The notes beneath the pieces are model-generated. The model worked only from the letters and a program-made list of their open reading frames with translations, made no database searches and had not been told where the DNA came from. A stretch of DNA of 63,989 nucleotides, the filler included, from Perkinsus olseni (lineage: Eukaryota): NCBI GenBank assembly GCA_013115125.1. It is 4 parts of 4 records of this genome, joined end to end, with 100 filler letters (N's around TTAATTAATTAA, not from the genome) between each part and the next. Parts side by side here need not be neighbours in the genome. Positions count along the whole stretch, not along the records: positions 1 to 15,981 come from JABANN010000687.1; positions 16,082 to 32,056 come from JABANN010000688.1; positions 32,157 to 48,098 come from JABANN010000689.1; positions 48,199 to 63,989 come from JABANN010000694.1. The stretch is one strand, 5' to 3'. Positions 6,990 through 57,913 of this stretch are shown here, in pieces; positions within the stretch are counted from its first letter, which is position 1; each line of letters starts with the position of its first letter. The position numbers were made by a program, and so were the translations under genes.

Positions 6990-7640
6990 CTTTTATCCCT
7001 TTACCAGGTGTTTCTCCAGTACATCGTTTGCGTTGAGTTTACGTTGGGTTTCAAAATAGCAGATGCTGGGGGAGAAGGCCTCGGCTTGCAATACCAGTAT
7101 TGTTCCTGAACAACGCATCTGGTGCCTTGGAGGACGCGACGGGTGTCGCCCTCGAAGGCTTCCCAACTCGAAGTATACGGTGAAGTGGCGATTCCCAACG
7201 GCCAATATCGCTTCCCGAGGAAGCGATACTGGCCATGATTAGCCCGCTCGGGGGCTGAGTGGCCCAGGAGAATAGTTTCCTCTGGAAACGGTTTCCAGGA
7301 AACCGCCCTAGAGTGATGAGTACTTCTCTGTTGCCTGGGCAATTCTCTGCCAAGGAGATGGTTAACAAACCTACTCTTGAACACCGCAGGCTCGATCGCG
7401 CGCAGGAGCATTACTGTATTTTTTCCAGAAATCTCCTGTAATTTCCCAGCAATTCACAGATGGGCACATCTACACTGCGAGCCTGCCGCCCCTCTACATG
7501 TATTCGAGCGAATCTTCTACCATTACAAGGGAATTAAGAACTCGTGCCCTGAAATCCTTCAACTTCAAACATTTTCAACACGAGCGCCGCGCTCGGAGCG
7601 CGGCTTCTTGCCGGCCTCGCCATCATCAGGACACACGCTG
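6990..7640 (-). mobile_element. Degenerate DNA transposase relic (hAT-like)
   Basis: Broken frames with weak similarity to hAT N-terminal and first catalytic-D regions; paralog at 4450-4935. Confidence 0.3.
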
Positions 7641-10600
7641 AATAGAACGGCACTAACGATGTTCACTATTCACGCGTGATTTCAACTATGTCGCAGAAAA
7701 ATCGCGGGAAAAATTCTGTTTCAATGTTTCCCATGTTTGTTCGTGGCTGTCGGCGACAGGAATAAAACACGGGCGCTTTCGAGGAGGGCCGTCAAAGTTC
7801 AGTGACAGATCTTATGATTTGGCGAAGCCGCTTCGCGATGACATCTTCAAAAATTTGGTGGTAGATGAAGAACTCACGGACACACTAGCCGCGGTCCGGG
7901 AAGCTAGCCGCGCCGTATTGAGCTGTGTACCTGAGATGAAAGCTCATACATATTGCCTAATGACCTATGAATCGTAGGCTATGATATTACCTGTAAGATT
8001 CAGGATAGACAGATCAATGATCTGAGATCATAGAAAATTCAAAATACAATCTTCCGCTCGTATGCTATATCGTAAAGTTAACACTGGTATGAACTGATAC
8101 TTCATTGTTTGGGGTCACCACAACATCAACGATGCACCATTGCTACCTCGGTGACACCACCCTTGCGGGGGACATTGGCCCCAATCAAGTGGCGCCCTTC
8201 ATAACTTCGCAAAAAAAGGATTCGAGGTAGGTAACACCTACTAGGTATTCTGGCGGCCAGGATCTGGCCAACTTAGACATTGTGTAAGTATCTGCGTCAC
8301 CTCTGTAAGGAGACTCCTAGCGAGGACTCCTGGCGACCTTGAACTGCATACCAAAATGAGCGTGGCACATGATTCTACGTGCGTACCCTTTCGAGGGTTG
8401 TCTCCATACAGTAGGACACCGTCATTGCTTGCATGAAATGCTACGCGGGGAGAACCCTCACGTTTTCCTCCCCTCGTCGCTGTTCTGAAAGAGCCATCCT
8501 GACTGACTTATGATCATCTTCCCGCCTTGCCGTTACGACCGCTCTACAGAGGCTGTAGGCCGCTAGCTTGGAATAGGGTGGACTCCACCCAGTGGAGCAT
8601 GTCTCCTTATTCCCCCGTTGAGCTATAACAGGCGCAGCTGACTCCGACCACCACAGCAAGAAGCCCCCTCGACATGCGCAGCATCGTTGAAATTTTGTGC
8701 TTCGCGAGCCTACGTGGTGCCGTCATTGATATTGAAGAGCTTAACGTCAGAGGATACCTGTAAGTTAATGTGCGAGCCATCGTCATTCATATAGAGGAAC
8801 GCCACGTCACCCATCAGGAGAACGAACCCCCCTCCGGATCCCTCTCTCGGAAACGGGAGCTTGACCGGCCCGATCCATGGTGCGTTAAATCCTCTACATT
8901 TGTGTATGACCTGCAAGGTCAGGAGGTAATGTCTACGAGAAGCCGGTGGGAAAATGCTATCCCTCCGGAAACAACGATTTAGATGGATGCCGCTGCAATA
9001 CTAAGGAAGCTCCGTTCACGCTGGTGAGCTGGGATGTTGGCTTCAGCTCTAGAAACCCTCAAAGCACGCGCGAATCCCTCTCCAGTTCGTCGACCTTCAG
9101 AAAGGGGACCCGCCGTGAGGTTGTTGAGCAGCCCGGCAGCGGCTGCCTCCATACTTCCTCCGTATCTACTTTCAGGTAGATAAAAATAATGTCGTCGTGT
9201 TCGCAGTCTGCGTGGAGGCCTGCGTTACAACTAAGAGCTGTTTAGAGCCCCCTAGCGGGTCAGCAGAATGCTACGTCAATCGTTGCTTCGTCAGCTGTTG
9301 GACACATGCCGTAAGCAAGCTGATGTTCTTTGGCGGATAGTGCGCCCCCTGAGCTTTCTCTTCGCACTCTCAGGACTGCCCGGAATCGGGAATGTGCGTA
9401 GTTTTTCGATCCCCCAGAGAAAACGCCTGTCTGTACAAGAACTAATGCTGACTGGCAGTCAATGATTGCCTCTCCAGTGAAGAGTCGCCACTCCCGAATT
9501 TTGTTTCCAGGTCAGATCATACTCATTTTAATGATCAATATCTAAATAATGTTGCGGAAATCGTCAGAGCCCTGCTGCGATACAGCATTCAATTTTGATT
9601 GACAAGCATCTTTATGACAAGTAGTGTGCGTACAGCATAGCGACGCTATGATAGCGTTCTATTCTTTTTAAGAGAATCTCTTACACTCTTTACCAGCTGT
9701 CAGGCATGAGGCGCTGTTTTTCATTCTGCACGACGTGGTTCAGTGTTATCATAACAATATTGATAATGGGATTATCGCAGTTAACTTGCTACTCATTACG
9801 CGCCGGTCGTCTTGTGCACGCGTCGCGCACTCATTGAGTGCATGATGCGTGCATAGCCCATACTCCCGCCCCCCGAATAGAACTTGGTATACAGAGTTTA
9901 CACTCCTTCTCGCCTTGCGTTGGCTATGAGTAACAACAGAGAAGCAACACATACGTAAAGCCGAGAGCTCTCCTGAGGCCCGTGACACGAAGGTGACACG
10001 ACTTGCGATATTGCAGCTCAGTTCTGATGCAGTTGCAGCCCTTACAACTGTCGTTGTTCATTTTTTATTCACCTCGCCCCCCCTCCCGGTGGTGCCTGGT
10101 GATGGCGCTGCTCCGCGCGACAAAGCCGTGCTGAGCGGTAGCGCCGTCCCAGCCGCTAAGTTGCTAGGTGTGGTAAAGGCTTCACCTAGCAACGCGAGCT
10201 AGCCCAATACCTCCAGCGGAGGGAAGTCTCCTTCCGGATATCAGATGTTGAGTGCTGGTGGGTAATCCCGCTTATTGAGTTAACACGAGACAGAGTTGGT
10301 TAGCCTGATTCTAACTTATACAGTACCAGACATCTAGAGACCGGAAACGGTTGTGCAGGGATAACTTCTACGGAAAAGTGAGTTCGGGGGTGATTTTTTT
10401 TGGTGAGTACTTGATGCATATATACATTGCTTGCGATGGGTCAGCAACCGTTTTTCGATGAAACTGAAAATTACCCGACAGTTCGCTACGACGTAGCAAA
10501 CTGTCACAGGTTTGTAGCAGCTACGCTCTTGTTTGTGCGTGCAGAGTAGTCTGTACGCAAGCTATATTTCAAGGTCCATCTCACAAGCGCTCTTAGGCCA

Positions 10601-11411
10601 GAGAGTATTGTAAACTTGAAGTTATATGTTATGTAACAGTGTTACAGTAACACTAGTAGTGTTACGCTACCCTACGTTAGCTCATACGGAGTCAGAGGAG
10701 GTGAAGTGTGGAAACCCCGGCATACGAGCAGTAGTTTTGTATATCTTCACGTCCGGGATTTGCAAAGTTGTAGCCTGAGCCTTCAGGAAGAGCCTTCCGC
10801 AAACTGCCGTCGGCAGTCTGCCGAGGCTAATGGACAACAGTACCAAGTCATTGGTGCTCTGGTACCCTCCCTTGCCGCGATTTCGGAGTTCGAATCCCTG
10901 TAGAGGGCAACCGAATAATGACTTCAGCGAGGGAAGATGTGGTCCGACCACAGTGGTCGGGTAAGGGTCATCGTTACCTAACCACAAGTCGTATTTGTTT
11001 CTCCTCCACTGTCGTTCATAGTCAACGCACGGCGGGAGTGTATAGTCTCCCTGCTTCTTCTAAGCTTATCCCCGCGAATGGGAATAGTTATGCACGCATC
11101 CACAAGAAACAGCATCGACAGTGTGGGAGCTCTGTAACAGAGCCTCTCTCGAATGATTCGAGTCGAATCTTCAGGTTTGAGGGAACAATCGCACGGTGCG
11201 ATTCGCACCTTGCGCTCGACTCGTTCTTAAAAGCATAGGCTAAGCCTCAAGGCTCCAAGACTCACAGCGTGGGCTACAGTGCAGCATGGGGCTTGCTGCT
11301 GTATATCGCAGCCTGCATGTCACGGTGACAAGCTGCGAGCTGAGCTTAGAGAGCAGCAAACGACTCCGAGTCGGAATTTCCGACAATCACGGTATCAGAA
11401 ACCTCATCACC

Positions 11412-11913
11412 ATGCTCACCATCATTAGTATTCTGTGCTTCGTGCTCCACGCAGGCTTCGTGGACTCATCAGGGAATATCTACGAGACGCCGGCAGGGAC
11501 ATGCTACGTCTATAATGGAGCCGCAGCAGGATGCGATTGCAGCTCTGATCTTGTTTTCAGCATCCACGTGGGTATACCATCATCGACCGCTGAAATGTTG
11601 CCGATACATTTCGAAATTCTCAGTGATGATTCTCAGAATAAACAAGGAGTCATCTCCTCAGCCGTCTGCTCGAAGAGGTGCACCACCGCGGAGCAGTGCC
11701 CCTTGCCTCCCTTTCGGTCTCCAGCAATGAAATGTGTTGACGGATCGTGTGTTATAGGATGTGTCGATGACCAAGTGAGTCATCCGAGGACTCTCAACGC
11801 AGGAATTCGCTTCATATTCTCAGGACTGTCGAGGTTTCCTGACCCAGCCGGGGTACTGCCAAGATTCACTACAATATAAAGTTATAGGGCATGCCTGTAT
11901 GTACAAGCAGTAG
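11412..11913 (+). CDS. Small cysteine-rich secreted protein (2 exons)
   Basis: Signal peptide MLTIISILCFVLHAGFVDS; Cys-rich body; GT-AG intron ~11775-11823; last exon DCRGFLTQPGYCQDSLQYKVIGHACMYKQ*. Confidence 0.75.
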
Positions 11914-12164
11914 CACGGTTGCTGTTAGAAAAAATCGAGGAAGTTCAATTGACCTTCGTATGTATCCATCGGATATTTGTTCACAGAGGAAAGCAGCAGT
12001 GGCCAGGTATCCCATCCGATGTCCTGTATTCACGCCCTGTTTCGACTTCTGGTCATTCCGTTCAGTGACGAGAAGTATAGGACATGGGTATGATAACTGG
12101 CGTGTGTGGGGAGAACAGACATCGTTGGGGATTTAGTCAGTAAACGATGTCATCATTGATGATC

Positions 12165-12211
12165 CGTTATCTGCTTACGAAGCAGACGTTCTAACACTGA
12201 GCTGAAGTGGC
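12165..12211 (-). pseudogene. Truncated tRNA-Thr(CGU) relic (5' half and anticodon arm)
   Basis: GCCACTTCAGCTCAGTGTTAGAACG-TCTGC-TTCGTAA-GCAGA; T arm missing. Confidence 0.55.
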
Positions 12212-12312
12212 CTACGCGACGTGTTACCCAGCAAATGAGAGGCCGAATAACAGCAACGCAAGATCTTTCTCATACAGTCATCAGAGGTCGATGCGATACT
12301 ACCAAACACTCC

Positions 12313-12384
12313 AGCCACTTGCCAGGACTGAACTAACGACCTTCTGCTTAGGAAGCAGACGCTCTACCACTAAGCTAAAGCGGC
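12313..12384 (-). tRNA. tRNA gene or pseudogene, CCU anticodon on a tRNA-Thr-like body
   Basis: 72-nt cloverleaf: acceptor GCCGCTT/AAGTGGC, anticodon arm TCTGC-TTCCTAA-GCAGA, weak T arm with loop TTCAGTC. Confidence 0.6.
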
Positions 12385-12691
12385 TTATGAACAATGCCCC
12401 CCTGAAACTGAAGGACCAAAAACCGTAGTGCAAGATCCTTCTACTGCCAGCAAAGGATAAAGCCATTTCAGCGAAATGATTTCACGGAGCCCCCCTCACG
12501 TTCTCTATGCGAGACACATCAGTCGATGTTGGCTTTCTGCGGACATGAGCTGGACAGTTAGACACAGTATGTCGATCGGAGCTTGCCTATAATGTAGCGG
12601 CTGATGCTCACCCAAAGTTCACACGGTGAAGTTCACAGTTATGGGCTGGGCTCGCTAACTACGGCTGAGCCACGATGATCGTGGCGTGAGC

Positions 12692-16159: not shown

Positions 16160-18115
16160 AGATGCTTAAAGACATCCCTCTCACTGCTGGGGATTGGATC
16201 AGCAACACCTGCGATGACACCCATACCGGAATCAGGGGGAGATCCCTGGGGCACAAGCGGCGCTTGTCAAGCGCTTGAAGGCCCTCCAATGGAGGGTCGA
16301 CTCGCTTCTCCAGTGGCAAGCTCGTGAATAGTAAGCGTCGGTTTGCTCTCGGACTCCGAGACTCGGAGAAGGTACATACAACCTAGTCTCACATAAATTA
16401 AATTTATGGAAATTTATTAAATTTCCTCAACCGAGGCCGGTTGAGAAGTGGCCGGAAATGTGGCTCGAAAGCCCCTACGACCATCCGTGGTACAGCGGAT
16501 GGTTGTTGAGCACTCCATGCAGGTTTGCCACCCGGCATCAGCAGTGGTACTCAGACCTTACGCTTTGGATCGCTTTAACCGGTCCATTAACTTAATGCTT
16601 GTAAAGTCTTCTAGCGCTCATCGTCGCCTCTAGTCGCTATCTCAGGTTCCCAGTACGAGGCTCAAGGCTCTGGCCCTACTACTAAAGCACACAGTGTGGG
16701 CGCTGGGAACTCTAGAGCGTCTATGAGAGATTTCCTGGAGAAACCAGAGATCAGTTTCGCTATAGAAGAAGCTCTTCAGCAGAACGAGACGATTGACGTG
16801 TTCGCGCGAGACTTCGACAAATTGGGTGAGCAGCTCACCCAATTTGCTCACCGTGAGCTGGCTTCTTTCGGCTGAGTAAAGTCCGAAAGAAAATAGGCAG
16901 GTGTTTACGACACTCGCATGGCGGTGCTGGACGCAAGTCTGGGCGCGGGCACGGAGGCTGGCATCACTGAGGTGAGAGGTGCAGTCTTAGGCGCTCAGAT
17001 GAGTGTCTCATCGTGGTCAGTGCCGCAACTTCCATGATGTGGCCTACACCAAGAACAAGAGAGTTGAGTGCATCCACTGGGTACCGGGGGAGTCCGATGT
17101 CATCGCAGCTTCCTACTTAGAGAACCTCACCTACGGCCAAAGGCTAGACAGTGTCTAGGCTAGACACTGTCTAGCCTTTGGCCGAAATCAGATTTCAGAC
17201 GCGCAGGGTTCAGGAATCAGAAAATTTCTGATTCCTGAACCCTGCGCGACGCGGCGCGTTTCACCTAGCCGAAATCTCGGACGCGCCTGTAGCTCGACCG
17301 CGTCCCGGCGGCGCGCCCGGCCGCCGCAAAATTACGTTACGGACCGTTACGGCTGACTTTTACGGTAACGCTTCAAGGCCCGTAACGTAAAGTTACGGCG
17401 CCGTAACGGCCCTTACGGAGTCATGGACAAAACGGGAAATTGCCATTCAAGTCGTCTGAGTCTGTTTCATGTGAATGCGCATGCGTTAACGAGGCCGGCT
17501 CGGCAGTTCCGGGTCAGTCTGGGAGTGAGACGGATGGAATTTCAAAGGGAGGCGAGTGGGCAATGCAGAGCCAAATGTTAGTCTCCCAGCGCTTCGGTTG
17601 AATCCGAACCACCAATAATGAGTTTAACAACTATTTGAGCTATGGTCAAATGCCTTACAGCGACTGTTTCCGCCACAATTCCAAAAAGGCAGTTCAGCAC
17701 TAACCGTAAACGGTGAGCTGGTGAGCAGATGGGGCTTACGACTTTACGGCGTAAAGTCGTAAGCCCCTTCCGTAACCGTAAACTACTTACGTTACGCGCA
17801 CCGTAACGTAAACCGCAGAGAAGCCGTAGCGGTCCCCATGTATAGCTCGGGGTGACCCCAGTGGGGTCGATCCCTGGAAGTTTCAACTTTTGAGCAAGTG
17901 GCAAGGGCGACACCGTCATCAAAAGACCGGAAACAGAGTACCTAAAACTCCGATGCCCAGGCATCATGGCTGAGACATTTACCAACAGACGCGTCGGACG
18001 CGCCTACGCGGTGACCCAGCAGGCGCGCCTGTGAGAGCACGACCATACGCGACACGCGCCTGGAGGCGCGTGAGGTACGCCTAGGTGAAACCCAGCTAGA
18101 CACTATGGGGAAGGT
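16160..18115 (+). pseudogene. Decayed partial duplicate of DNAI3/WDR63
   Basis: Aligns exon by exon with ~22045-22992; has deletions, palindromic insertions and an inserted element at ~17150-18095. Confidence 0.85.
17257..18095. mobile_element. Non-autonomous hAT-like element with a damaged left end
   Basis: Terminal inverted match GTTTCACCTAG / CTAGGTGAAAC; many TTACG/CGTAA subterminal repeats; 8-bp target CTAGACAC at 18096-18103, single copy in the intact paralog (~22972-22979). Confidence 0.7.
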
Positions 18116-19000
18116 AAGTCGTATCTGTCTCTGCCTCCCTTCAACGAGTCGCACAGGCGTGGCAGTCCAGTGACGTTTAGAAGGGATTAGAAATAGGCTG
18201 ATCATTAGTAATTAGAAGAGGACCGAGGAACTGCATGGCTCTTCTATTTCTGGGTTCCTTTGGCGGCGCAGTTGATCGGTCGGTCTATGGTCATTTCTCG
18301 CTGAATTTTCCAACGTCTGCCTCAGCGGGCAACCCGGGCGCTCAGCGAGCGTTGCATTGTGTCAAAGTTCTTGCTCATCATTAGGATCGCTACTGATCGG
18401 AATCCAAATCAGCCGCAGCCTGTTCAAGCATACCACACTGGAATTTCCAGCAGTCACCGCATTGAGACCAGAGATGAGGTGCACACTGCATTGGTGCTGA
18501 ACACGCATTCTGCTAGTGTTCGATGAGACTCATATGAGACACTGTCTGTGACCCACTCAACAGGAACATCAATATCAGGCTCCGCGTGAGGGAGCATCTG
18601 CACCGCAGAATCTGCAGCCAGCTATGCACTGGTACGGCTTCTCAAGTATCCTCACGGCGTGATTCACGCAGAAGGATAAACCGCGGACGGGGCTCCAGCG
18701 AGCTTACGTTCAGTCAGCCATTTTTGCGGAATTCTTTGCTTCTATTGGGTTTTTCGAAATCGTAGGGTTCTGCAGCCCACCCTTGCTCGGGTATTGACTT
18801 TTCGACGATAGGACCTATCGCCGAGAGTATCGTAGGTCGCCCTTTATTCATGATAACCAACATTTAAAGTTGACGGCGAGAAGACAGGCGGACGCGCACG
18901 CCACTGATTCGATCTGGAACAGCTAGTCTCGTGACCTCCCCCTCACAGAGGACATGAATCCTACTCGGCGAGTAGTACTCGCATGCTCGGAGAGTCGTTC

Positions 19001-19762: not shown

Positions 19763-21829
19763 TCTCCTAATCTCTACTCCTATTCTTCTCTCTATTAATC
19801 TCATTTCGAGTCATAATCGAGCTTTGGTGGTGTAATAGCTCTCCATTATTACGATTTTCATGCCTTTGCTTTTATTCGGTTGCTCTGCAATGCGAGCTGG
19901 CGACCGATTTTATATCAATGCGAGTAAGGTTGAGTACACATGAAACCTTCCTCTATTTACTCTTGTTATCTTCGGCTAACTTGTTTATTACCTACCATTA
20001 CATTAAGGAAAGCATAGCATCACGAGATTGTGCTACGTAGCGTTATTACTGTCAAGGTCACTGCCGAGCATCGACCTGAGACGTATACTGTGAGCCTCGG
20101 AACTCTATGTTTCAGAAATGTCAATGCGTATGCGTATGCTGTGACACTAGCCTGCTTCGATGGCCTTTTACTTAGCTCGTACCCACTCACCGATAGTTCA
20201 AGGATGGAGACTCACTCTGGAGACGAGATTCTTATTGGGTTGTATGGAGGCTTTGAACCTGCCTAGGTTCGGACAGCCCTGCGTATAATGTATAATCAGT
20301 TTTTAGGGATAGACTTACCGAGGGTGAAAGTTTCACCCTCGGTTAGTATATGGGGCTGAATGGATTATGCGAGCTCAACTACGTGGTAACATTCAAGGAA
20401 ACTCTTCATCGAACGGAGAACAGTCCGGCAGTCCCCCCCCGCTCTGCATGCGAATGATGTGTTGGCCCCGATCGAGCCTGAGCTGGCCCACATTCGCCTG
20501 GGAGAGGCCAAGGGGACGTGGAGAGATGAAGAGCTGCGTGCGGCTGTCCGAACGATAGTAGACACTGGTATTGATTGCAAGCACTAGGACCTCTGTCGTA
20601 TCATGCTATGCGACGAGGAGGGCACTGTGGTTGGTTATGAAGCATGCTACTTAATACTGAGGCTTGAGGCGTTTGGTCATGGGATACACTATGCTAGTTC
20701 AATCGGTGCCGAGACTAATGACAATATTGGGATAGCAGGGTCGCGACGGCGACGATGAATGTATTGCCTTCCACCGGCATCGGCCGTGAAACAGCAGTAT
20801 CTGCGCGAGCTTTAAGCTTTGCTTTCGAAAATCACGCGCGTGTATCGTCTCTTTCATATTTTACAGGTTCGAGTACAGGAAGCTGGTCAGCGCGGCTATA
20901 TCGTGGTAGCCAGAGCGATAACACCGGCTGTCTCATCACCGGCAGCCCAACGCTACGCGCTCCATGTACCCTCGCCAAGAATCACTCCATGTTGAGTGTA
21001 GCTTCTCACCGCTTGACAATAAAATCTCGTGGTTCAGTAATAACGCCCCGTTTGTTCGCATAACAGCTCCCGAAGAGGCCCCAGCTTCCAGGCTTTTCCA
21101 ATATAGATATGCTCTTAGGAGTGACACTTCTCTGACAGAGAGTCCCTGTCGTTCCACTGGGCATAGCGCAGCCTTGGAAAGGTATTGATTGAAAATTTCG
21201 CCCGAGAAGCCTTACTAGAGTCTCAAGGCGATAATAAGTACCCGAAACGGGTTACGGTTTCGATAACCGTAAGATACCTTGGCGCGATCGCCGTTCCGCT
21301 ACTGAGCTGAAGAGTGGCTTCGGTCATGTGGGCAACGCTTCTCAATGTAGATGCCTCACGTCGCCGCTGTTGCCGCCCTCTTAATCGGTACGTCGTGCTT
21401 CCTCCAATCTTCACCTTTTCGATGTCATGGAGGTCCTACCTCCTCCACCGGCGTTCTAACCGAAAGCAGCGGCCAACCTCATCCTTACGTTTGTCAGTTG
21501 ATCGCTGAGAAGGCCGGTAGGTACGTTCTAGCTAGGCGGGCAAGGCACTGTAAGCTGCTAGCTGGGCAGTGTCTGCTTAGTTAAGCGCTGTTTGCCGTCC
21601 CTTCTGAGCGGCTCTGTGTCGGTGAGGGTTTCCGAGATGGCCGCTTGCTCCGGGTACCCGTCGTACCAGCCAGAACTCGCCTGACTTTGCCACGTGTTCT
21701 ACTGGGCAAGCCGAGTTTGAACGTTCGGGCCGAGGCCACATCTTCTACTCGAGCCATCGTTCGCTCTCGGCGGCCGACGGCGCCAGTGCTCACCGTGACT
21801 TTTCTGATCCGACAGGGACGAGGTTAGAT

Positions 21830-30246: not shown

Positions 30247-30850
30247 GAATCTCGGCGCCAACGCCCGTCGGGGAGTGGACGCTTGCGGGCTAACAGACGT
30301 GAAGTAGGAACCGCTTGTGAGATTGTGCGAGTTGGGTATCAAAAGATGGGAAGTGTAAGGCTCCACGATATCACGTAGGATTATAGTCCCTAACTTCGCC
30401 GAAAAAGTGCGATGAACGAGCGTACAGTAAACGGGACAGACTGATCTTGTGTGACAGGACGAGGCTGCATGTCGCGTGGACGGAGCACAGGACTCTAAGA
30501 GGGAACCCTGGGTGCGGCCATAGCCGGTGGCCCGAGATGGGTGACCCATCATGGGTCAGGCCGTACACTGCAGCGGAAACATATTCTCAAATGAGAGCAT
30601 CAGTTGTGCTACATGAGGAACCCTGGTCCGGATATGAAGTATCAAGATTGGACCCAGGCATCATGAGTCGCGGAAAACCAAACTTCGACAAGTAGCTAGG
30701 ATCAACAAGCCTCGGGAGGCATGAACCGTTGTTTAGGACCTTTCTCTCTGCCGAATACAATTTTGTTATTCGGGCGGGCGCTGTAGCTGGATTTTTGAGC
30801 GGTTCCGCAGCACGTAACGTTTAGTTTCCATCCTCGTCAAACTTCCAACA

Positions 30851-48027: not shown

Positions 48028-48028
48028 G

Positions 48029-48198: not shown

Positions 48199-48339
48199 GC
48201 TGCCAACGCATGCCTTCCATAGCCTATGGAAGGCATGCGTTGGAGCCCCAATTCGAATGTTTAACGATAACTTGAAAAACCTGCGATCTTTAGGATACCG
48301 AGTGCTTACTTCATGTAGGCCGATTGTGAGTTTTTCCGT

Positions 48340-49606: not shown

Positions 49607-49688
49607 CGACAACGGCAGGATTCGAACCTGCGCAGGCGGAGCCTGGTGGATTTCAAGTCCACCTCCTAAACCACTCGGACACGCTGTT
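49607..49688 (-). tRNA. tRNA-Ser(UGA)
   Basis: 82-nt cloverleaf with variable arm; GTGGA-CTTGAAA-TCCAC; GGTTCGAATCC; position 1 mismatched. Confidence 0.8.
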
Positions 49689-49954: not shown

Positions 49955-50036
49955 CGATAGCGGCAGGATTCGAACCTGCGCAGGCAGAGCCCAGAGGTAT
50001 TCGAGACCACCTCCTTAACCACTCCGACACGCTGTC
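49955..50036 (-). tRNA. tRNA-Ser(CGA), degenerate
   Basis: 82 nt, paralog of 62291-62372 with anticodon-stem mismatches. Confidence 0.6.
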
Positions 50037-50589: not shown

Positions 50590-51075
50590 TCACTCAGTCC
50601 GCTTAACCCTCGAAGAACATACGAAATTGCTTACCACCGATGGGCAAGTCAATACAAGAGGGAAGCTTATTCGCGATGTTGGAGAAAGAATGCGTGGACA
50701 CAAATATCTAACGCCCCCGGGTCACACGATCAATGGCGAGAGTCTGATGGCTGAGCTTACCTTCTTCGACTCTCCCGAGAAGGCACACTTGAAGTTTCGG
50801 GGCACCGAGAACACGGTATCTGGTATGGGGTCGCTTGCGCTCTTCTCTCTGTCTCTCCACATTCAACCAAGCATACACCAAGTCGTGAATGCGGAGGACT
50901 CCCTTCTCCTCGGCGAATCGATCGAAATCGAGATCACTCCCGACCTCAAGAAGCGCTCAGAGATGATCAAAACCTTCAACGAGCAGTTCGGTGATTTCTT
51001 CGAAGCCGGGAAAGATGACTTCAAGCGGATGTTCTTCACTCCTTCCAGGGACGGAATGGGGCACGATTATATACA
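50590..51075. pseudogene. Inversion-broken member of the tRNA-linked secreted family
   Basis: C-terminal codons on minus strand (~50590-50652), gene body on plus strand (~50653-51075); no signal peptide. Confidence 0.75.
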
Positions 51076-51578
51076 GATAACAATTGTGCATGCATGCTAC
51101 AAAGTATTGCAAGTTTTCAAGTTTGCCAAGGTAAAGTTATTGTGTTGCGCGGCCTGTTGCGCGTGATCATAGAGGGACATGCCGTCGACTGGGAACTGAG
51201 TAAATTCATTTTCTCACGGATTTTGTCCAATTCTCGCGGAACAATCTCGCTCGCCCAAAATTCCCGCGCGCGTTGACAACGCGGCGTTGTGTTACGACAA
51301 TAATCTCGGAATTTTCTACCTTGCCCAATGCGTTCATCCGAGGACTATTCCGGAATCCTGAGGATAGCTTTGGAGCTTGCCCGACATTAATGGCCCCTTA
51401 CACTACGCGGCCTTCGGGTTCGAGGTGAAGGTCGCCCGAAGGGCGACCTGAGTCGGGTTTCGGGTTCGCGGGGGTTACGGTCAGGACTCTCCTAGGTCTT
51501 GGTCAACTTTTCAACGCTTACCAGCCTAACATCCCAGGTCTGGTGACTTCGTCGTATCTCTACCTAAGTCTATTCCTT

Positions 51579-51690
51579 CGTGACTATTCCTCTGCATCCG
51601 TGACTATTCTCTATTATTCCTCCGTGACTTTTGCACATTGGGCGAGCGAAATTCTGTCCGTGACTGTTCACCGACTTCCGTGATTATTCC
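51579..51690. repeat. CCGTGACTATT-like tandem motif (probable transposon subterminal region)
   Basis: About five spaced copies. Confidence 0.5.
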
Positions 51691-52851
51691 CTTCCACCCG
51701 GAACTTGGAACTGGACAAGACCGTAGAGACCAGAGAAGACAGAAAGTAGCAGTAGTAGTAGTAGTAGTAGTGCAGAGAATGTGACGGGGATCGACGGGAT
51801 CAGACGGAACAAAGAGGATCCAACAAAGAAGAGCACTGCAGACACAAAATACTGACGTATCTATTACAATAGTATCTACTAATCACGATGAATGATCGTG
51901 GATCATAACAGTATCATCGCAACTACTAGCCTCAGAGCGACCGTTACATGGGTACAATTGTCGTGCAAATTGCACGGTGCAATTATTGTGCAACGTACGC
52001 GCAATCTAGAGAGTGCAAAACTGTTCAGTGCGAGAACTTTTTATCTACGACGAGTTTTAGCCTCAAACTTCGTTTATACACTCTCCTTGATGTGTTATAA
52101 TGAAAACCAGGTCGCGCAACCAAGACTCGAAAAAAATAATTTCACCAATTTTTGGACCCCCCGGCAAGCACCCTATGCCTCCCATCGACATCGTACAGTA
52201 TCTTGCTCTCATGTCCCCAAACTTGTGCTACATACAGTACAATAACTAGCGTACCTGGGACGATACTAACCGACAGGAGAAGGATGACCATCGTTTGAAC
52301 TTCGGCTCCAGCGACCCTCTCGTGTAACCCCTTTCATATATATTACCCAACTTAGTCGACTGGGTGGTGTGGAGAGGACCTAAGGCTTTCAGGTCTCCAC
52401 CCAAAGCCTTGGTCACGGGGCAGAAACCCGTCTAACTGGTACACCGTTCACACAGGTGCGTCCCGTCACCCAGTCCACTAGGAAAAATCTTGCCCATCAC
52501 TCAAAATCTTCCGCTGCAGTTGACCCTAGCCTCGAGTGAGACTCTCCAGGAAGGATAACCCCATAGCAGCATGACTCGAACGTATGGAGACTGACACCAG
52601 GGAATCCACCTCCTTGATAACGCGGACGCGCTCGCCTATTCTGCCGTCGTCCGGGCCGAGAGTACCGGGAGATACAGAATAGATCTCAAGCGGAATTCCT
52701 ATAAGTCAGCAGTGGTACTTGAATCTGTGCAAGTTGAGCCTACGAGGTTCACTGGCTACCTCCTTGACCACTCGGACACGCTTGATGGTCCCCAGGGGCG
52801 GGCTAATTGGCATCGGAAGGAACAGCACAGAACTCCACCGGACTAGTAAAC

Positions 52852-52933
52852 CGACAGCGGCAGGATTCAAACCTGCGCAGGCAGAGTCTAGAGGATTTCG
52901 AGTCCACCTCCTTAACCACTCGGACACGCTGTC
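52852..52933 (-). tRNA. tRNA-Ser(CGA), slightly degenerate
   Basis: 82 nt; T loop TTTGAAT; one anticodon-stem mismatch. Confidence 0.7.
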
Positions 52934-53577
52934 TGAAGTATGGAGTAGTAGGAAGTAGCACCAACATCGTAGCTAAGACAGCTATCTAGAAAACCACTGC
53001 GGGCGGTTCACGTCGTCTTCCTCAGCCGCACCCCCTCTCTCGCATGAACAGTCTCTATGGCGTCGATCATGTTGATTAGTCAGTTCAATGTCGCCGGATA
53101 GTATTCGGCGAATAGTCGAATTGATCGTCGACTTGGATTATCCAAGTTGGATAGCGACTGCATGCCTATGAAAGAATATCATCTCAATGGTTTATCAGCA
53201 GTTGATTCGCCACGATAATGAAGAAGTTAGATACCATGAAGGTGACGGTCGACATACTTTGCTCACGGGATTCTGCGAGTGCAGAGGCTAAGTAGGTCTC
53301 CCAGGGAGACCCTAAGGGAGACTCTCCCATATACTGAATCTCCTCGCGAAGTATCGAGCTGGGCTGTATAAAACTGGGATGCGGCGTATGAAGCAGTTCC
53401 GTGTTGTGAGGCAGTGCGGCTATTGCGTTTGGTAGTGGCCAGGAGCTCGAGTCTCGAGAAGCTCAGAACTCGAAGTTGGGCACAGCGATAAGTGGGACGG
53501 TCATTAATCTCACTTGAAAGTAGCACCTTAGACGATACAACTAACATCCGAACAAAAGGGCATGCTAATCACACTTG

Positions 53578-54189
53578 TCACTCACCCTTCCCAGCCCTGT
53601 AGAACATACGAAATGGCTTACCACCGATGGGCACGTTGATGAAGTCTTTCTCCATTCCGTCTCTGGAAGGAGTGAAGAACACCAACTTAAAGTCATCTTT
53701 CCAGGCCTTGAAGAAATCACCGAACTGCTTGTTGAAGGTTTTGATCACCTGTGAGCGCTTTTTGTGGACGTGGCTGACCTTGATTTCGATCGATTCGCCG
53801 AGGGGAAGGGAGTCTTCCGAGTTCACGACTTGGTGTATGCTTGGTTGAATGTCGAGAGAAAGTTGGATAAGGGCGTGCGGTCGCCTTCCGGTGGCCGTGT
53901 TCTCAGCGCTCCAAAACGTTAAGCTTGCCGTAGCGGGAGAGTCGAAGAAGGCTAGCTCAGCCATTAGAGTCTTGCCGTTGATCGTGCTATTCGGGAGCGT
54001 CACATATTTGTGTCCACGCATTCTTTCGCCGATTCTGTCAACAAGACTGCCCCTTAGCGCTCCGTATTTTATCATCATTTCTTTCCTCTGAATACGATCC
54101 TGACCAGCGAATAGTTCCAGAAGGTGGACTTCCGATGAAGAGGCGAGGATGCTGCTGCAGAAGGCGAGAGCGAGTATAACGCGCATCAT
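53578..54189 (-). CDS. Secreted hypothetical protein, tRNA-linked family
   Basis: Signal peptide MMRVILALAFCSSILASS; ERMRGHKY..INGKTLMAELAFF..FGDFFKAWKDDFK..IGGKPFRM. Confidence 0.85.
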   Translation of the reverse strand: MMRVILALAFCSSILASSSEVHLLELFAGQDRIQRKEMMIKYGALRGSLVDRIGERMRGHKYVTLPNSTINGKTLMAELAFFDSPATASLTFWSAENTATGRRPHALIQLSLDIQPSIHQVVNSEDSLPLGESIEIKVSHVHKKRSQVIKTFNKQFGDFFKAWKDDFKLVFFTPSRDGMEKDFINVPIGGKPFRMFYRAGKGE

Positions 54190-54699
54190 GTAAAAGGGGG
54201 ATGTGAGGAAATTGGCAATGGCTCGATTTACACAACGATCGATTTCCTATAATGTCTCCAGGCGAGCGATATCTCACCATTCTGTTGATCACTGGCTGAC
54301 TGTTGTGACTATATTTTTACTATCCATTCGATTCCAGTGTTGTGAACCCAGTAAACCAAGTTGTCGGAGCATCTCCCAGGTGCTTTATTTGCAACAATTA
54401 GGTAGAGGCGGGTATTTTGAGGGCGATGGCTGCGTGCCCGTGAAGCTCGGCAATAAGCCTTACGTTGCACTAGGTAGGGCGAAACACCTGCCAGGATGTG
54501 ACATTTCCTGCACTCTCGTGTCTATCGTGTTGCCGGGTAATTTCTCCCATTATCCGGCTCTTCACTAAGGGGTAGTGAGCGCCCAAACTCGACCGAACGC
54601 AATACCACTGAGCGATCTAAATTAACCAAAACTCATAGTCCTTGAATATGCATGCCATTCGGTAAGTCGCTACCCTCGTTGAAAGCAGCAGGGACGGAA

Positions 54700-55880
54700 C
54701 TTGCAGAACCAGAAAAAATCACGGAGAATGTCTCTACGACGATGGGCTGAGACGTTCACTGCTGCCCGGCTCCCTCTGTCACTTGAGCACTCCCTCTAGC
54801 GGCGGTAACCTCGTCGAAAGTGGCCGAAGAAGCTTTGGCAATTGCGGTGGATATCAGACCCAGCTCATTCTCGAGGCCTTCATTCTGAACAGAAAATGCC
54901 AGACTTCTCTGCGCTGATGAGCTACTCGTAGCCTCAAGTAGAGGCTCTCTACAATATAAAGTAAGAGTCGTCCTTCACAGTGTCCCGTGAACATCGAACG
55001 CCGGAAGCCGCTACACAGCCTTCCGTGAATCCTAGATGACAATTTATGCCCAGGGACTCCCCTTTTGGCTATCAAGCCTATCACCAATACGCTTTTTCTC
55101 ATGCACGACTGCCATCAGAAATGGCAAGCAATACAGTAACAAAGATACAGCGCTACTCGCATACCCGAACTCGCGTCCGGTCATTCCTGGCACGATAAAC
55201 TTGCTGAATCTAATCCCTGGCGAACCAACATACATCGGTGCTAGTCTAATCAAGCCGGGTCCCGGCGTTCGACTTGAAACTCACAGAAACGAGTGTACGG
55301 TATATCCACAGCAGTGAGGAGCTTTCCAGGGTGATGATGGCCCTGGCGTACTTGCATCCGTAGAGCCTCGAGCTCGTTTTCGAGCGCTTTCTTTCTGGCT
55401 TCCTCATTCTCTGAGAAATGGCGTCAGAGGTGAATGCCTCGGTCTAAAAGATCTCACCAACAGGTAGCGGCTTGTTGTTATTGCGTCGGTCACACGTAGA
55501 ATTGACGGCTAGCTGGAGATTTTTCACCTGAACAAACGAGTATCTTTCTGCAGCAAGTTCCAGACTTTGGAATCCAGAGTGAGGTGAACTCGTTTATCGG
55601 GAGAGTTCCTGTTGCGACGCTGCGCTTAATATGGAATTTCATGACCAGTCATAAACACGCAGCTGCAGCACGTATATTTGCGCTCAGGGCAACTAGTGCT
55701 TCTTTCGCTGCCACGTTTCGTAGTCTAGCATCGCCAGTAGGCTTGTCTCCACTCAAGGCTACGACTTCCCGACTGAAGGGCTAGCATCATCAGGAATGGG
55801 CATTTCGGTGAAAAGGTCAAACTAGATCAATCGATCATTGCACTGGCATGCTCGCTAGGGCCGTTTTCCCTAGCGATCAA
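54700..55880 (+). mobile_element. Degenerate hAT-like transposase relic
   Basis: MALAYLHP and FRSLASPVGLSPLKATTS loosely resemble hAT LDP and C-terminal dimerisation motifs. Confidence 0.3.
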
Positions 55881-57913
55881 CACTGACTTGATAACCACCT
55901 ATCCAGGGCACACCCAACCTGCCTCGAACATAGCCATCCCGAGATCCTCTTTCAACTCACTCGTCATCATTATCACAGATGATATCACCGCAGTGGCAAC
56001 AGAGGCAGACATTCCAGCGTATCTTGAAGATACTATCTTTAGTAAGTACATTCAACACACTTTACATCCAAGCAAGTCAGGTATCCTGCCCATAGTATTC
56101 GGCGATTGTCTAAATCTGTGAGTATCTTCTCTTGCGCTAATCGCAGACCACGGCAATGCCATGCTTACTGTCTACACAATTGAACTGTGTGCACGCTAGC
56201 TTCATCGTACTAGCGTGCTGTGATCAACTCCAATTCTCTCAACTACTCCAGTTCCCATCCGCTCTATCTCGTCCACTATGAGCCCAATCTACTCATGTCG
56301 TGTTCTACAACTACACTCCCCCGAGCAGACACGATTTTCTGAGTCCACTCGAAGCCCGACGTCACGTCGGTGACGTGGCCATATCATGCGTAGGCCGTAT
56401 CGCGTGCATCGTTACACCAATCAATGAAGGGTTACTTTCGGTAGACGAGCACTCGACTCACCTGGCTTGATCGCAGAGCTCGAGGTCGCGCAATGAAAGG
56501 GCGTTCTTCAACTGGCGGATCTCCGATACCGTCGACTGAAATAGGGGCGTTCTCGTCACAAAATACTGTCATGAAAAATTGCTGCCGACTCGGGAGCAGC
56601 AAAATCTGTAATCGCCCTCGGAAAAAGGCGATTACACGGCGTGTTGACAAATGGCACTGGCCTCTGGCCGGCCGGCCGGCACTAGGAGGGGGACTTTAGC
56701 AGGGCGCATCCGCGAGGGAACAGTGAAGGCGGCCTAGCCTGTACGTACAGGGAGAATTAATTGCTTATGCAAATCACAGAAAATACGGAGTATTTTTTTG
56801 AAAAAAATCAAGGAAATTCCTTGAATACGGAGTTGCTACAGGTAAAAGTTTGATTGCGTTTCTGTTTTGACGAGAGAAATTCCATGATATATCGATCAAC
56901 CGTTTCATTGTGTAGAACGAATTCCTTCACCCGAAGTACCAACAGCAGCAGTGTCTTTCCGCTTTTAATTTAGGCTGCGTAAGAGTAGCACGCCGCCAGA
57001 ATCGTCCGCGAGATTTCGAAACACTCGCCGTGCACGATCATTCTAAACCTCCCTATGCAGCCTGGGACTCGCTAGAAGAGTACCATGCCTTCGTGCTGAG
57101 GTGATCCGAGCCTAGCTAGATACTCTCTACTGTAGGCTGGTGACAATAGTGAAGCACTAATGAAAACCACGAGCCGTCTCATCACACCGGTAGGATGATA
57201 GAATCATTACTGCTGTGCGAAAATGAATACGATAGAAACCGTCAAAAACACAGGCTACTGAAGGGCCGCGCTCCCTTCTCACCTTGTTGGTCTTAGCACG
57301 AGCGGCTTTCGGTGACATCTCGGATACTCTGGGGGCGCCTGTCAATGAACAGCGGAGGCTGGGAATCTCCACTAGCAAAGAGACCAGTGGTCCTGGCCAG
57401 ATTTAATGCACGCTAACGAGCTCAAGATCTCACGAAGATCAACGAAATCCATATCTTGTCTATCATATCATGTCAATGCGACAAAAAGTCTCCGACTATG
57501 CGCATTGGCAAGAGTCTTACCAAGCCGGAACCGGCGTTGGACTATAAACTCACACACACACTCCATATCTTGTCTACACTATCGATCATCTGGTCCAGAG
57601 GCTCTGGACCAGAGCTTAAGGTTATTTGTCAGCGCCTCCACGCGGGACTTACCTCCGGAACCAGGACGTACGGCAGACGACGGGGACAATCTACTCGTGG
57701 ACGAGGTCATGAGAGAACCTCGAAAGCTTAAGCAGTCATCACGCTTATTGCGTGTCGAGAAGACGCTCCGCCCGACCAGGCCTCGCCCTTCACTCAGCCG
57801 TCACCGGCTGTGCTTTTCCCCGTTATTGTATCATCTACTTCACAAAAAATATCCGCCTTCATACAACTAACAGCACATCAGAGAACATGTTCATAACCAC
57901 ACTTTGACCATCT

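What the first reader, a model, noticed from the sequence alone, without database searches (positions are those of the whole stretch)
7581..57615. Recurrent stereotyped 22-nt 7+8+7 scar: dense record of hAT-type excision
Seen: one geometry recurs with unrelated sequences. For an 8-mer X it is X minus its last base, then revcomp(X), then X minus its first base. Exact cases: 7581-7602 (CGAGCGCG), 8010-8031 (CAGATCAT), 9636-9657 (CATAGCGT), 10632-10653 (TGTAACAC), 51962-51983 (CGTGCAAT), 53132-53153 (CTTGGATA), 57594-57615 (TCCAGAGC). Near-exact cases: 7964-7985 and 56356-56377. The paralog of the 7581 site (~4891) has one copy of the 8-mer. Known: hAT transposases (Ac, Tam3, Hermes) make 8-bp TSDs and leave hairpins on flanking DNA, nicked 1 nt off, so footprints are palindromes centred on the complement of the adjacent base. 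Inference: both opened hairpins anneal through the inverted TSD, giving a fixed repair product. This suggests very high hAT turnover and microhomology-type hairpin repair. I know of no description of this in perkinsids.
Basis: partly seen in the sequence, partly recalled or inferred. Interest (0 to 1): 0.82.

Follow-up and report, generated by a model that had tools for sequence, protein, structure and literature searches.

The report
Stereotyped 22-base transposon excision scars
Non-coding DNA of this perkinsid-like parasite is peppered with identical-geometry 22-base scars, each the shape expected when a cut-and-paste (hAT-type) transposon jumps in and out, so the genome holds a dense natural record of how such breaks are repaired.

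Summary
All 7 exact cases check out, and a scan finds 22 exact, 45 with at most 1 mismatch and 67 with at most 2 mismatches. Simulations give 0, 0 and 0.67. The peak sits at k=8 only.

Each scar is a 14-nt insertion that turns one 8-mer X into X[1-7]+revcomp(X)+X[2-8]. Evidence that the scars are real mutations:
- A paralog in the window has the empty site.
- An independent study's contigs carry 41 of 42 scars in 1-12700.
- Two diverged runs carry a scar that the window lacks.

Only palindromes with a 1-nt centre are enriched; even ones are not. Rare unmerged variants show the same 8-bp duplication with long palindromic runs on both sides. Positions 2 and 7 lean to T and A (nTnnnnAn).

This fits hAT-type chemistry: an 8-bp target duplication, flank hairpins offset by one base, opening far from the tip, and annealing through the inverted duplication.

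What is missing: no transposase, no resident element and no occupied allele was found, and no whole genome was available. The family assignment is therefore inferred (about 0.7). I rate it a new variant of a known kind, moderately interesting.

The parts
308..329 (.). exact 7+8+7 scar, X=CTACGGAG
1242..1263 (.). exact scar, X=CACGGCAT
2057..2078 (.). exact scar, X=ACTCCGTT
6948..6969 (.). exact scar, X=AGACGCTC
7283..7304 (.). exact scar, X=TGGAAACC
7581..7602 (.). exact scar, X=CGAGCGCG; empty paralogous site at 4891-4898
4891..4898 (.). empty (unscarred) paralogous site of the 7581 scar: single 8-mer, one base different
8010..8031 (.). exact scar, X=CAGATCAT
9636..9657 (.). exact scar, X=CATAGCGT
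10632..10653 (.). exact scar, X=TGTAACAC; overlapped by a 1-mismatch scar at 10649
10803..10824 (.). exact scar, X=ACTGCCGA
10938..10959 (.). exact scar, X=TGTGGTCG
11148..11169 (.). exact scar, X=CTCGAATC
11188..11209 (.). exact scar, X=ATCGCACC
16253..16274 (.). exact scar, X=ACAAGCGC; abuts the scar at 16275
16347..16368 (.). exact scar, X=TCTCGGAG
18961..18982 (.). exact scar, X=CTACTCGC
30536..30557 (.). exact scar, X=GATGGGTC
51269..51290 (.). exact scar, X=CGCGTTGT
51962..51983 (.). exact scar, X=CGTGCAAT
53132..53153 (.). exact scar, X=CTTGGATA
57594..57615 (.). exact scar, X=TCCAGAGC; overlapped by a 1-mismatch scar at 57587 (four-segment zigzag)
61799..61820 (.). exact scar, X=CTGGGTAC
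500..521 (.). scar, 1 mismatch
595..616 (.). scar, 1 mismatch
2461..2482 (.). scar, 1 mismatch
2508..2529 (.). scar, 1 mismatch
2785..2806 (.). scar, 1 mismatch
3786..3807 (.). scar, 1 mismatch
5590..5611 (.). scar, 1 mismatch
8227..8248 (.). scar, 1 mismatch; shares its last base with the scar at 8248
8248..8269 (.). scar, 1 mismatch
8576..8597 (.). scar, 1 mismatch
9662..9683 (.). scar, 1 mismatch
10649..10670 (.). scar, 1 mismatch
11363..11384 (.). scar, 1 mismatch
12464..12485 (.). scar, 1 mismatch
16275..16296 (.). scar, 1 mismatch
55558..55579 (.). scar, 1 mismatch
56019..56040 (.). scar, 1 mismatch
57587..57608 (.). scar, 1 mismatch, overlapping 57594
58720..58741 (.). scar, 1 mismatch
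59644..59665 (.). scar, 1 mismatch
61928..61949 (.). scar, 1 mismatch
706..727 (.). scar, 2 mismatches
992..1013 (.). scar, 2 mismatches
1332..1353 (.). scar, 2 mismatches
1461..1482 (.). scar, 2 mismatches
1566..1587 (.). scar, 2 mismatches
2130..2151 (.). scar, 2 mismatches
3683..3704 (.). scar, 2 mismatches
4296..4317 (.). scar, 2 mismatches
6383..6404 (.). scar, 2 mismatches
6917..6938 (.). scar, 2 mismatches
9448..9469 (.). scar, 2 mismatches; abuts 9470
9470..9491 (.). scar, 2 mismatches
11129..11150 (.). scar, 2 mismatches
12617..12638 (.). scar, 2 mismatches
17847..17868 (.). scar, 2 mismatches
18596..18617 (.). scar, 2 mismatches
21128..21149 (.). scar, 2 mismatches
51885..51906 (.). 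scar, 2 mismatches
53094..53115 (.). scar, 2 mismatches
54931..54952 (.). scar, 2 mismatches
59356..59377 (.). scar, 2 mismatches
61979..62000 (.). scar, 2 mismatches
16393..16424 (.). unmerged footprint: X=ATAAATTT with palindromic runs of 8+10 (or 9+9) nt joined end to end; the paralog lacks these 24 nt
16825..16859 (.). unmerged footprint: X=GGTGAGCT with palindromic runs of 14+7 (or 15+6) nt; the hairpin model reproduces 65 nt exactly; the paralog lacks these 27 nt
4094..4164 (.). older unmerged footprint: X=CCCTGGAG, left run about 6 nt, right run about 28 nt (best models 4 mismatches); contains the odd palindrome 4111-4157
17134..17184 (.). 25-nt-arm odd palindrome with a nested forward-reverse-forward-reverse zigzag; paralog similarity ends here
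17200..17248 (.). perfect odd palindrome, 24-nt arms, 1-nt centre; duplication partner not found exactly
17704..17770 (.). odd palindrome (21-nt arms, 95%) with an exact copy of X[1..7]=CCGTAAA 17 nt upstream of its left arm; 16 nt of filler unexplained
20309..20351 (.). odd palindrome, 21-nt arms at 90%; no duplication partner found
48203..48243 (.). perfect odd palindrome, 20-nt arms, at the very start of contig 4 (left context missing)

Best explanation
Each 22-mer is the footprint of one insertion and one later excision of a cut-and-paste DNA transposon with hAT-type chemistry.

Step 1 (inferred): insertion duplicates an 8-bp target X, giving X-element-X.

Step 2 (inferred from geometry; the chemistry is known for Ac/Ds and Hermes): at excision each flank is nicked one nucleotide outside the element, and its 3'-OH attacks the opposite strand. 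This leaves two hairpin-capped flanks. Their strands read x1..x7-x8'-x7'..x1' on the left and x8'..x2'-x1-x2..x8 on the right.

Step 3 (inferred; supported by the unmerged variants): host nucleases open each hairpin on the far strand, usually 8 or more nt from the tip (observed runs: 8-10, 14, about 21 and about 28 nt). The unfolded 3' tails end in rc(X) and X. These are perfectly complementary over 8 nt, so they anneal. Flaps are trimmed and 7-nt gaps are filled.

The fixed product is X[1..7]+rc(X)+X[2..8], a net 14-nt insertion. When one side is opened closer than 8 nt, annealing fails and long odd palindromes are left instead.

The scars are then inherited and decay by point mutation. They are purged from, or never fixed in, recognisable coding sequence.
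For: - Length: a sharp peak at k=8 only. Hits are 22/45/67 at <=0/1/2 mismatches against 0/0/0.67 simulated. There are 0 exact hits at k=5-7 and 10-13, and all k=9 hits overlap k=8 scars or one nested palindrome complex.
- One-base offset: palindromes with a 1-nt centre are enriched. Arms of 7 nt: 58 vs 3.8. Arms of 8 nt: 22 vs 0.8. Arms of 9 nt or more: 15 vs 0.4. Palindromes with no centre are not enriched (6 vs 3.8; 2 vs 0.4).
- Unmerged footprints carry the same 8-bp duplication. 16825-16859 is reproduced exactly over 65 nt by the model with runs of 14 and 7. 16393-16424 fits runs of 8+10. Both are absent from the paralog.
- 3 of 7 long odd palindromes outside the 22-mers have an exact 7-nt duplication partner nearby. 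About 0.05 is expected (my estimate from 4^-7 per position).
- Target bias: T at position 2 or A at position 7 in 54 of 134 chances, against a 24% background (p=3e-5). Hermes prefers nTnnnnAn (PMC6900584, passage).
- Empty and scarred alleles exist. The paralog has an exact 14-nt gap. Two diverged runs carry a 14-nt insertion behind 3280 that reads as a scar with 2 mismatches and is absent from the window (read by eye after the script flagged no scar).
- Not an assembly artefact. Contigs of a run from a second study cover 41 of 42 scars in 1-12700, with at most 1 difference and no gap per piece.
- Literature. Ac/Ds footprints are palindromes centred on the complement of the base next to the element. 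Arms reach 20 nt and microhomology is used in 88-89% of footprints in yeast (PMC5873905, passages). [quoted passage not shown]
Against: - No hAT domain (or any DNA-transposase domain) was found in 135 ORFs of 90 aa or more.
- No element with inverted ends and an 8-bp duplication was found at a strict setting (0 candidates). A relaxed setting gave 4 candidates against 0-4 in simulations.
- No occupied allele was seen. The large differences between strains that were listed show no inverted ends or duplication.
- The nTnnnnAn bias is weak: 40% vs 24%. It is not significant for the 22 exact scars alone (13 of 44, p=0.26).
- The short footprints typical of plants (1-3 palindromic bases) are not seen. 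The a+b=3 class is all microsatellite. The repair outcome is therefore unlike any host I could read about.
- Abutting scars (3 vs 0.29 expected) are not predicted by the simple model.
- The run from the second study may be the same laboratory strain.
Confidence: 0.7

Rival explanations
1. The scars arise by the same insertion, hairpin and excision logic, but the element belongs to another superfamily that makes 8-bp duplications: a Mutator-like element (MULE), or one whose excision chemistry is unknown (Merlin, Zisupton and similar; these names are recalled).
For: MULEs also form hairpins on flanking DNA and make 8-10 bp duplications; Muta1 makes 8 or 9 bp (PMC5499845, passages). No hAT gene was seen here.
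Against: The length is strictly 8: no independent 9- or 10-bp events. The Muta1 hairpin product is 43+43 nt, with no one-base offset, and more than 90% of its excisions in yeast are precise (PMC5499845, passages). Here only palindromes with an odd centre are enriched. The nTnnnnAn lean fits hAT.
Confidence: 0.12
2. The scars are short-range template-switch errors of a DNA polymerase. The nascent strand jumps to the complementary strand, copies back, and returns, with no mobile element involved.
For: A forward-reverse-forward arrangement is the classic template-switch product (PMC7954356, search listing only). Four-segment zigzags and abutting scars exist. No element was found.
Against: Template switching has no reason to copy back exactly 8 nt with both turns on a single base in 67 unrelated sequences. 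Lengths 5-7 and 10-13 are empty. The unmerged variants keep the 8-bp duplication while the inverted runs vary from 6 to about 28 nt. That is what two independent hairpins give, not one switch. A target-site base preference is unexpected for this mechanism.
Confidence: 0.07
3. A host-encoded (possibly domesticated, transposase-derived) nuclease system makes 8-bp staggered breaks, fills them in and forms hairpins, with no free-living transposon. The scars would then be a by-product of a cellular process.
For: Very high scar density with no element in 64 kb. The counts in the 0/1/2-mismatch classes are even (22/23/22), as a constant long-running process would give (inference).
Against: Both hairpins need their own full copy of X, so the 8-mer must be duplicated before the cut. 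That is what an integrated element provides (reasoning). No such system is known to me. No candidate gene was seen.
Confidence: 0.08
4. The scars are an artefact of sequencing, library preparation or assembly.
For: The assembly is fragmented, and one contig ends in a poly-G run typical of a sequencing artefact.
Against: Contigs built independently from a run of a second study reproduce 41 of 42 scars. Scars carry 1-2 point mutations in even proportions. A paralog and diverged runs show the alternative allele. Scars are absent from conserved coding sequence and from a whole 16-kb contig.
Confidence: 0.01

Closest known systems
Ac/Ds (hAT) excision footprints in plants, budding yeast and Candida
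   Same: The 8-bp duplication is retained. Palindromic insertions are centred on the complement of the base next to the element. The route is hairpin, then opening, then microhomology joining. Palindrome arms reach 20 nt in yeast (PMC5873905 and PMC1978519, passages).
   Different: There, one donor site gives many different footprints: 28 types among 128 Candida revertants. Here a single product with the whole duplication inverted dominates: 22 exact merged scars against 2-3 exact unmerged ones. The scars are fixed in a natural genome at up to about 3 per kb. The short 1-3 nt palindromes are not seen, and the element itself was not found.
Hermes / hobo (insect hAT elements)
   Same: Flank hairpins and a preferred target nTnnnnAn (PMC6900584, passages). 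The first nick one base into the flank is recalled from Zhou et al. 2004, which I did not read.
   Different: The target bias here is weak. No transposase or element ends were seen.
Mutator-like element Muta1
   Same: A hairpin forms on flanking DNA, and the duplication is 8 or 9 bp (PMC5499845, passages).
   Different: Its hairpin is flush (43+43 nt) and its excision is mostly precise. Here there is a strict 8 bp, an odd centre and a fixed 14-nt insertion.
P nucleotides at V(D)J coding joints (RAG plus Artemis) and Transib
   Same: Palindromic additions come from off-centre opening of a flank hairpin.
   Different: Recalled: even palindromes, usually 1-4 nt, and a 5-bp duplication for Transib. 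Here palindromes have an odd centre, runs are 8 nt or longer, and the duplication is 8 bp.
Short-range template-switch mutations
   Same: They produce a forward-reverse-forward local inverted duplication.
   Different: They have no fixed length or fixed turning points. Here the length is always 8 with single-base turns.

Membership tests
hAT excision footprint | 8-bp target-site duplication retained at the empty donor site | tested here: met
   The peak is at k=8 only: 22/45/67 observed against 0/0/0.67 simulated. The k=9 hits are not independent events. The unmerged variants keep the 8-bp duplication.
hAT excision footprint | [quoted passage not shown] | tested here: met
   Odd-centre palindromes are enriched 15- to 40-fold, and even ones are not. 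The definition is taken from PMC5873905 (passage).
hAT excision footprint | Target preference nTnnnnAn | tested here: inconclusive
   T2 or A7 occurs in 54 of 134 chances against a 24% background, p=3e-5, for 67 sites. For the 22 exact sites it is 13 of 44, p=0.26. The direction is right and the effect is small.
hAT excision footprint | A hAT element (short inverted ends, transposase with the hAT dimerisation region) in the same genome | tested here: not met
   Tested within the window only. No such Pfam family in 135 ORFs, and no ends-plus-duplication candidate above chance. The whole genome is not held, so absence from the genome is not shown.
hAT excision footprint | An occupied allele (element flanked by the same 8-mer) at an orthologous or paralogous site | not testable with these tools
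The four large differences listed show no element features.
Mutator-like element footprint | 8-10 bp duplication (often 9), flush hairpin, mostly precise excision | tested here: not met
   There are no independent 9- or 10-bp events, and even palindromes are not enriched. The features are from PMC5499845 (passages).
Polymerase template-switch mutation | Variable length of the inverted copy and variable switch points | tested here: not met
   The length is fixed at 8 with single-base turns in 67 cases, and other lengths are empty.
Known structured RNA family | Match to a curated covariance model | tested here: not met
   Rfam at gathering thresholds finds only 5 tRNAs in the window.

The most novel reading that the evidence does not exclude
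The scars are not left by an ordinary multi-copy selfish transposon. They would be written by a very low-copy or host-controlled hairpin-forming integrase/nuclease system that runs continuously. It would add one stereotyped 14-bp insertion for roughly every hundred point substitutions in non-coding DNA. It would be coupled to a repair route that opens hairpins 8-28 nt from the tip and joins by 8-nt annealing instead of classical end joining. The 7+8+7 scar would then be a lineage-specific mutational signature and a built-in molecular clock.
Probability: 0.15. Interest if true: 0.85.

Novelty: new variant of a known kind. Interest (0 to 1): 0.6.

Why it matters
If the reading holds, this genome is a natural experiment with many thousands of replicates on how a eukaryote repairs transposase-made DNA hairpins. 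The outcome is almost a single one: full retention of both hairpins, merged through the inverted target duplication. That points to hairpin opening far from the tip and to annealing-driven joining, and it makes the repair-gene repertoire of perkinsids worth checking.

It also implies an active or recently active cut-and-paste element in an oyster parasite where gene-tagging tools are scarce.

The scars are polarised, nearly homoplasy-free 14-nt markers. They could date and order lineages and paralogs. Annotation and alignment pipelines should expect them.

Tried and rejected
- Whole genome: not held, so no genome-wide k-profile or transposase search was possible.
- Run search: no RNA holder listed.
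- Read laying: one call only. Most differences were not shown (926 substitutions and 191 insertions or deletions hidden), so I could not tabulate which scars are polymorphic. Gap letters in the diverged runs' pieces (42, 43, 43, 15, 13, 95) look like near-multiples of 14, but that is only suggestive.
- Resident elements: the strict search gave 0 candidates. The relaxed search gave 4 against 0-4 in simulations. The 129-, 372-, 211- and 76-nt strain differences have no inverted ends or duplication.
- Pfam on 14 + 121 ORFs: no DNA transposase.
- Do scars break genes? Leaving out the 14 nt in memory does not lengthen the ORFs across the 22 exact scars. The median is 118 codons as is and 110.5 collapsed, against 93 and 94 for 600 random control deletions. 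I rejected the idea that scars sit in recently broken or RNA-corrected coding sequence.
- Classical short footprints (1-3 palindromic bases): not enriched beyond microsatellites.
- Relatives in metagenomes: two scans, with the reverse-transcriptase ORF and the subtilase ORF, found nothing.
- Rfam: only tRNAs.
- Earlier findings of this scan: none for this genome and none relevant.
- Papers not held: Yu et al. 2004 (PMC321453), Colot et al. 1998 (PMC109017) and Hickman et al. 2014 (PMC4105704). I could not check whether the exact 7+8+7 product was already described for Ds in yeast or for Ascot-1.
- Literature searches for such scars, or for hAT, in Perkinsus, and for genome-wide hAT footprints, found no description. 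The library lacks most subscription journals.
- Contig 3: its SufB ORF matches eukaryotic clusters only, so I could not tell whether this scar-free, 40% G+C contig is the same organism.

Full report
**The frame of the finding.**
The 63,989-base window is not one locus. It is four contigs of about 16 kb (1-15981, 16082-32056, 32157-48098, 48199-63989). They are joined by artificial N44-TTAATTAATTAA-N44 linkers. The best Atlas match of a subtilase ORF (59863-61332) is a cluster labelled Perkinsozoa.

**Observation.**
All 7 of the 7 'exact' sites equal X[1..7]+rc(X)+X[2..8] at the stated coordinates. Both 'near-exact' sites have one mismatch.

- An exact scan over k=4-13 gives 22 hits at k=8, against 0.0 in 10 dinucleotide shuffles.
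- It gives none at k=5, 6, 7 or 10-13, and one at k=9.
- With mismatches allowed, k=8 gives 22, 45 and 67 hits at <=0, 1 and 2 mismatches. Six third-order Markov simulations give 0, 0 and 0.67.
- The four k=9 hits at <=2 mismatches all overlap k=8 scars (7274 with 7283; 58711 with 58720) or lie in one nested palindrome at 17134-17184. I see no independent 9-bp events.
- Scars per contig are 42, 8, 0 and 17.

**What a scar is.**
Relative to a single 8-mer, the 22-mer is a 14-nt insertion. This can be seen directly. The segment 7540-7650 aligns to a paralog at 4850-4945 with exactly one 14-nt gap. The paralog has the 8-mer once, at 4891-4898, with one base different.

The 22-mer is two overlapping palindromes, each with 7-nt arms around a single central base. 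Across the window only this kind of palindrome is enriched:

| Palindrome type | Arm length | Observed | Simulated |
|---|---|---|---|
| 1-nt centre | 7 nt | 58 | 3.8 |
| 1-nt centre | 8 nt | 22 | 0.8 |
| 1-nt centre | 9 nt or more | 15 | 0.4 |
| no centre | 7 nt | 6 | 3.8 |
| no centre | 8 nt | 2 | 0.4 |
| no centre | 9 nt or more | 0 | 0 |

**The scars are real and heritable, not an artefact.**
- Two studies hold this DNA.
- Contigs built from run X2, of the second study, cover 41 of the 42 scars lying in 1-12700. Each listed piece has at most one difference and no gap. X2 may be the same strain, so this shows independence of library and assembly, not of lineage.
- Two diverged runs of that study (X7, X8) differ at many places. 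They carry a 14-nt insertion behind 3280. With its flanks it reads as a scar with two mismatches (GTcCCAT GATGGAAC TTCCgTC), and it is absent from the window and from X2. I read this by eye, after the left-arm-only scan had flagged no scar there.
- Scars with 0, 1 and 2 mismatches number 22, 23 and 22. Even classes are what a constant rate of formation followed by neutral decay predicts. On that assumption the rate is roughly one scar per hundred point substitutions in the three scar-bearing contigs. This is my inference, not a measurement.

**Where the scars lie.**
- None of the 67 lies in an ORF with a Pfam match: reverse transcriptase 12763-15741, CLP1, SufB, SET or the subtilase domain.
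- None lies in the conserved parts of a three-copy gene family.
- The intact retroelement and the whole of contig 3 have none.
- Leaving the 14 nt out does not lengthen ORFs across the 22 exact scars. The median is 118 codons as is and 110.5 collapsed, against 93 and 94 for 600 random control deletions.
- The scars therefore sit in non-coding or decayed DNA. They are not interrupting recently intact genes.

**Mechanism.**
Write X = x1..x8 and let ' mean the complementary base.

1. An element that duplicates 8 bp on insertion gives X-element-X.
2. At excision the top strand is nicked one base outside the element. Its 3'-OH then attacks the bottom strand at the element boundary. The left flank becomes a hairpin reading x1..x7 x8' x7'..x1'. 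By symmetry the right flank reads x8'..x2' x1 x2..x8.
3. A nick 8 or more bases from each tip on the far strand frees 3' tails that end in rc(X) and in X.
4. These tails pair perfectly over 8 nt. Trimming the flaps and filling two 7-nt gaps gives exactly X[1..7]+rc(X)+X[2..8].

The first nick one base into the flank is recalled from Zhou et al. 2004, which I did not read. Passages I did read agree with it:
[quoted passage not shown] - In yeast, palindrome arms reach 20 nt and 88-89% of footprints use microhomology (PMC5873905).

**The rare exceptions support the model.**
Scanning for X[1..7] + a left palindromic bases + b right palindromic bases + X[2..8] finds two exact unmerged footprints:
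- 16393-16424: X=ATAAATTT, runs 8+10 or 9+9.
- 16825-16859: X=GGTGAGCT, runs 14+7 or 15+6.

For the second, the model reproduces 65 nt of the window exactly. Both insertions (24 and 27 nt) are missing from the paralog at 21985-23030.

Among ten odd palindromes with arms of 12 nt or more, seven lie outside the ordinary 22-mers. Three of these (4134, 16832, 17749) have an exact 7-nt partner in the place the duplication predicts. About 0.05 would be expected by chance, estimated from 4^-7 per position. At 4094-4164 the best models (X=CCCTGGAG, runs about 6 and 28) leave 4 mismatches, so that event is older or less clean.

When one hairpin was opened closer than 8 nt (runs of 7, about 6 and 1), the other side keeps a long run (14, about 28, about 21). 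This suggests opening is usually far from the tip, so that most events can anneal and merge. That would explain why one product dominates: 22 exact merged against 2-3 exact unmerged. Short footprints of 1-3 palindromic bases, common in plants, are not detectable here. The a+b=3 class is all microsatellite.

**Which family?**
- The strict 8 bp, the one-base offset and the absence of any shared element-derived sequence fit hAT.
- The inferred targets have T at position 2 or A at position 7 in 54 of 134 chances, against a 24% background (p=3e-5). For the 22 exact scars alone it is 13 of 44 (p=0.26).
- Hermes prefers nTnnnnAn (PMC6900584, passage). There is also a lean at flank positions -3 and -2. 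A passage of PMC3706591 says hAT and P elements favour a 14-bp motif around the duplication.
- Mutator-like elements also form flank hairpins. However, they make 8-10 bp duplications, give a flush 43+43-nt hairpin, and excise precisely in more than 90% of yeast events (PMC5499845, passages).

**What is missing.**
- No DNA-transposase domain in 14 + 121 ORFs of 90 aa or more.
- No element with inverted ends and an 8-bp duplication: 0 strict candidates, and 4 relaxed candidates against 0-4 in simulations.
- No element features at four large strain differences.
- No whole genome and no relatives in metagenome contigs.
- The link to an actual hAT element is therefore inferred.

Three pairs of scars abut exactly (start-to-start distance 21-22 nt), against 0.29 expected (P=0.003). 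Four-segment zigzags also exist (57587/57594 and 17134-17184). The simple model does not predict this. Re-insertion next to old scars is one possible reading.

**Rivals.**
- Polymerase template switching gives forward-reverse-forward copies, but it has no reason for a fixed 8 nt with single-base turns. It also does not explain unmerged forms that keep the 8-bp duplication while the inverted runs vary.
- A host nuclease system without a mobile element cannot be excluded. It would still have to duplicate the 8-mer before cutting.
- An artefact is very unlikely, given the second study's contigs, the mutated copies and the alternative alleles.

**Novelty.**
Hairpin-type hAT footprints and their microhomology-guided repair are known. 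I found no description of the following:
- a single product carrying the whole inverted duplication as the dominant outcome;
- a natural genome carrying such footprints at up to about 3 per kb;
- any such record in perkinsids.

The library lacks most subscription journals, and three key papers were not held. I rate it a new variant of a known kind, of moderate to good interest. It is decisively testable once whole genomes of several isolates are scanned.

Noticed in passing
15982-16081, 32057-32156, 48099-48198: The window is four separate ~16-kb contigs joined by N44-TTAATTAATTAA-N44 linkers. Distances and 'neighbourhood' across these points mean nothing.
   Followed up: yes
32157-48098 (contig 3): This contig has 0 of the 67 scars and 40% G+C, against about 50% elsewhere. 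It is gene-dense (SufB, SET, RNase HII and FAD-binding fragments) and is bounded by (TAC)n and (GTA)n runs in inverted orientation. Whether it is the same organism or a different genomic compartment is open.
   Followed up: partly
12301-15981 and 1-73: A retroelement with an intact 993-aa reverse transcriptase/RNase H ORF (12763-15741, minus strand) lies next to a tRNA-Arg gene (12312-12385). Contig 1 begins and ends with inverted copies of a ~72-nt repeat whose depth in public runs is about 100 times that of its neighbours. The element carries no scars, so it is younger than most of them.
   Followed up: partly
8227/8248, 9448/9470, 16253/16275; also 57587/57594 and 10632/10649: Scars abut or overlap more often than chance: 3 pairs at a start distance of 21-22 nt against 0.29 expected. 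This suggests re-insertion at the edge of old scars or compound repair events.
   Followed up: partly
49607-49688, 49955-50036, 52852-52933, 62291-62372: Four tRNA-Ser genes, each embedded in a diverged segmental duplication. The duplication also carries a three-copy gene family of unknown function (ORFs 50570-51163, 53581-54246, 63001-63696).
   Followed up: no
63870-63989: Contig 4 ends in long G runs, which look like a sequencing artefact and not biology.
   Followed up: no
9845-9950 and 3858-3980: Short stretches have 5- to 50-fold higher depth in all four public runs. They are parts of high-copy repeats that I did not identify. No tRNA or Rfam match lies there.
   Followed up: no
59365-61332: The subtilase reading frame runs from 59365 to 61332 with a single in-frame stop at 59860-59862. 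Two decayed scars (59356, 59644) lie upstream of the S8 domain. Whether this is an intron or a dead gene was not examined.
   Followed up: no
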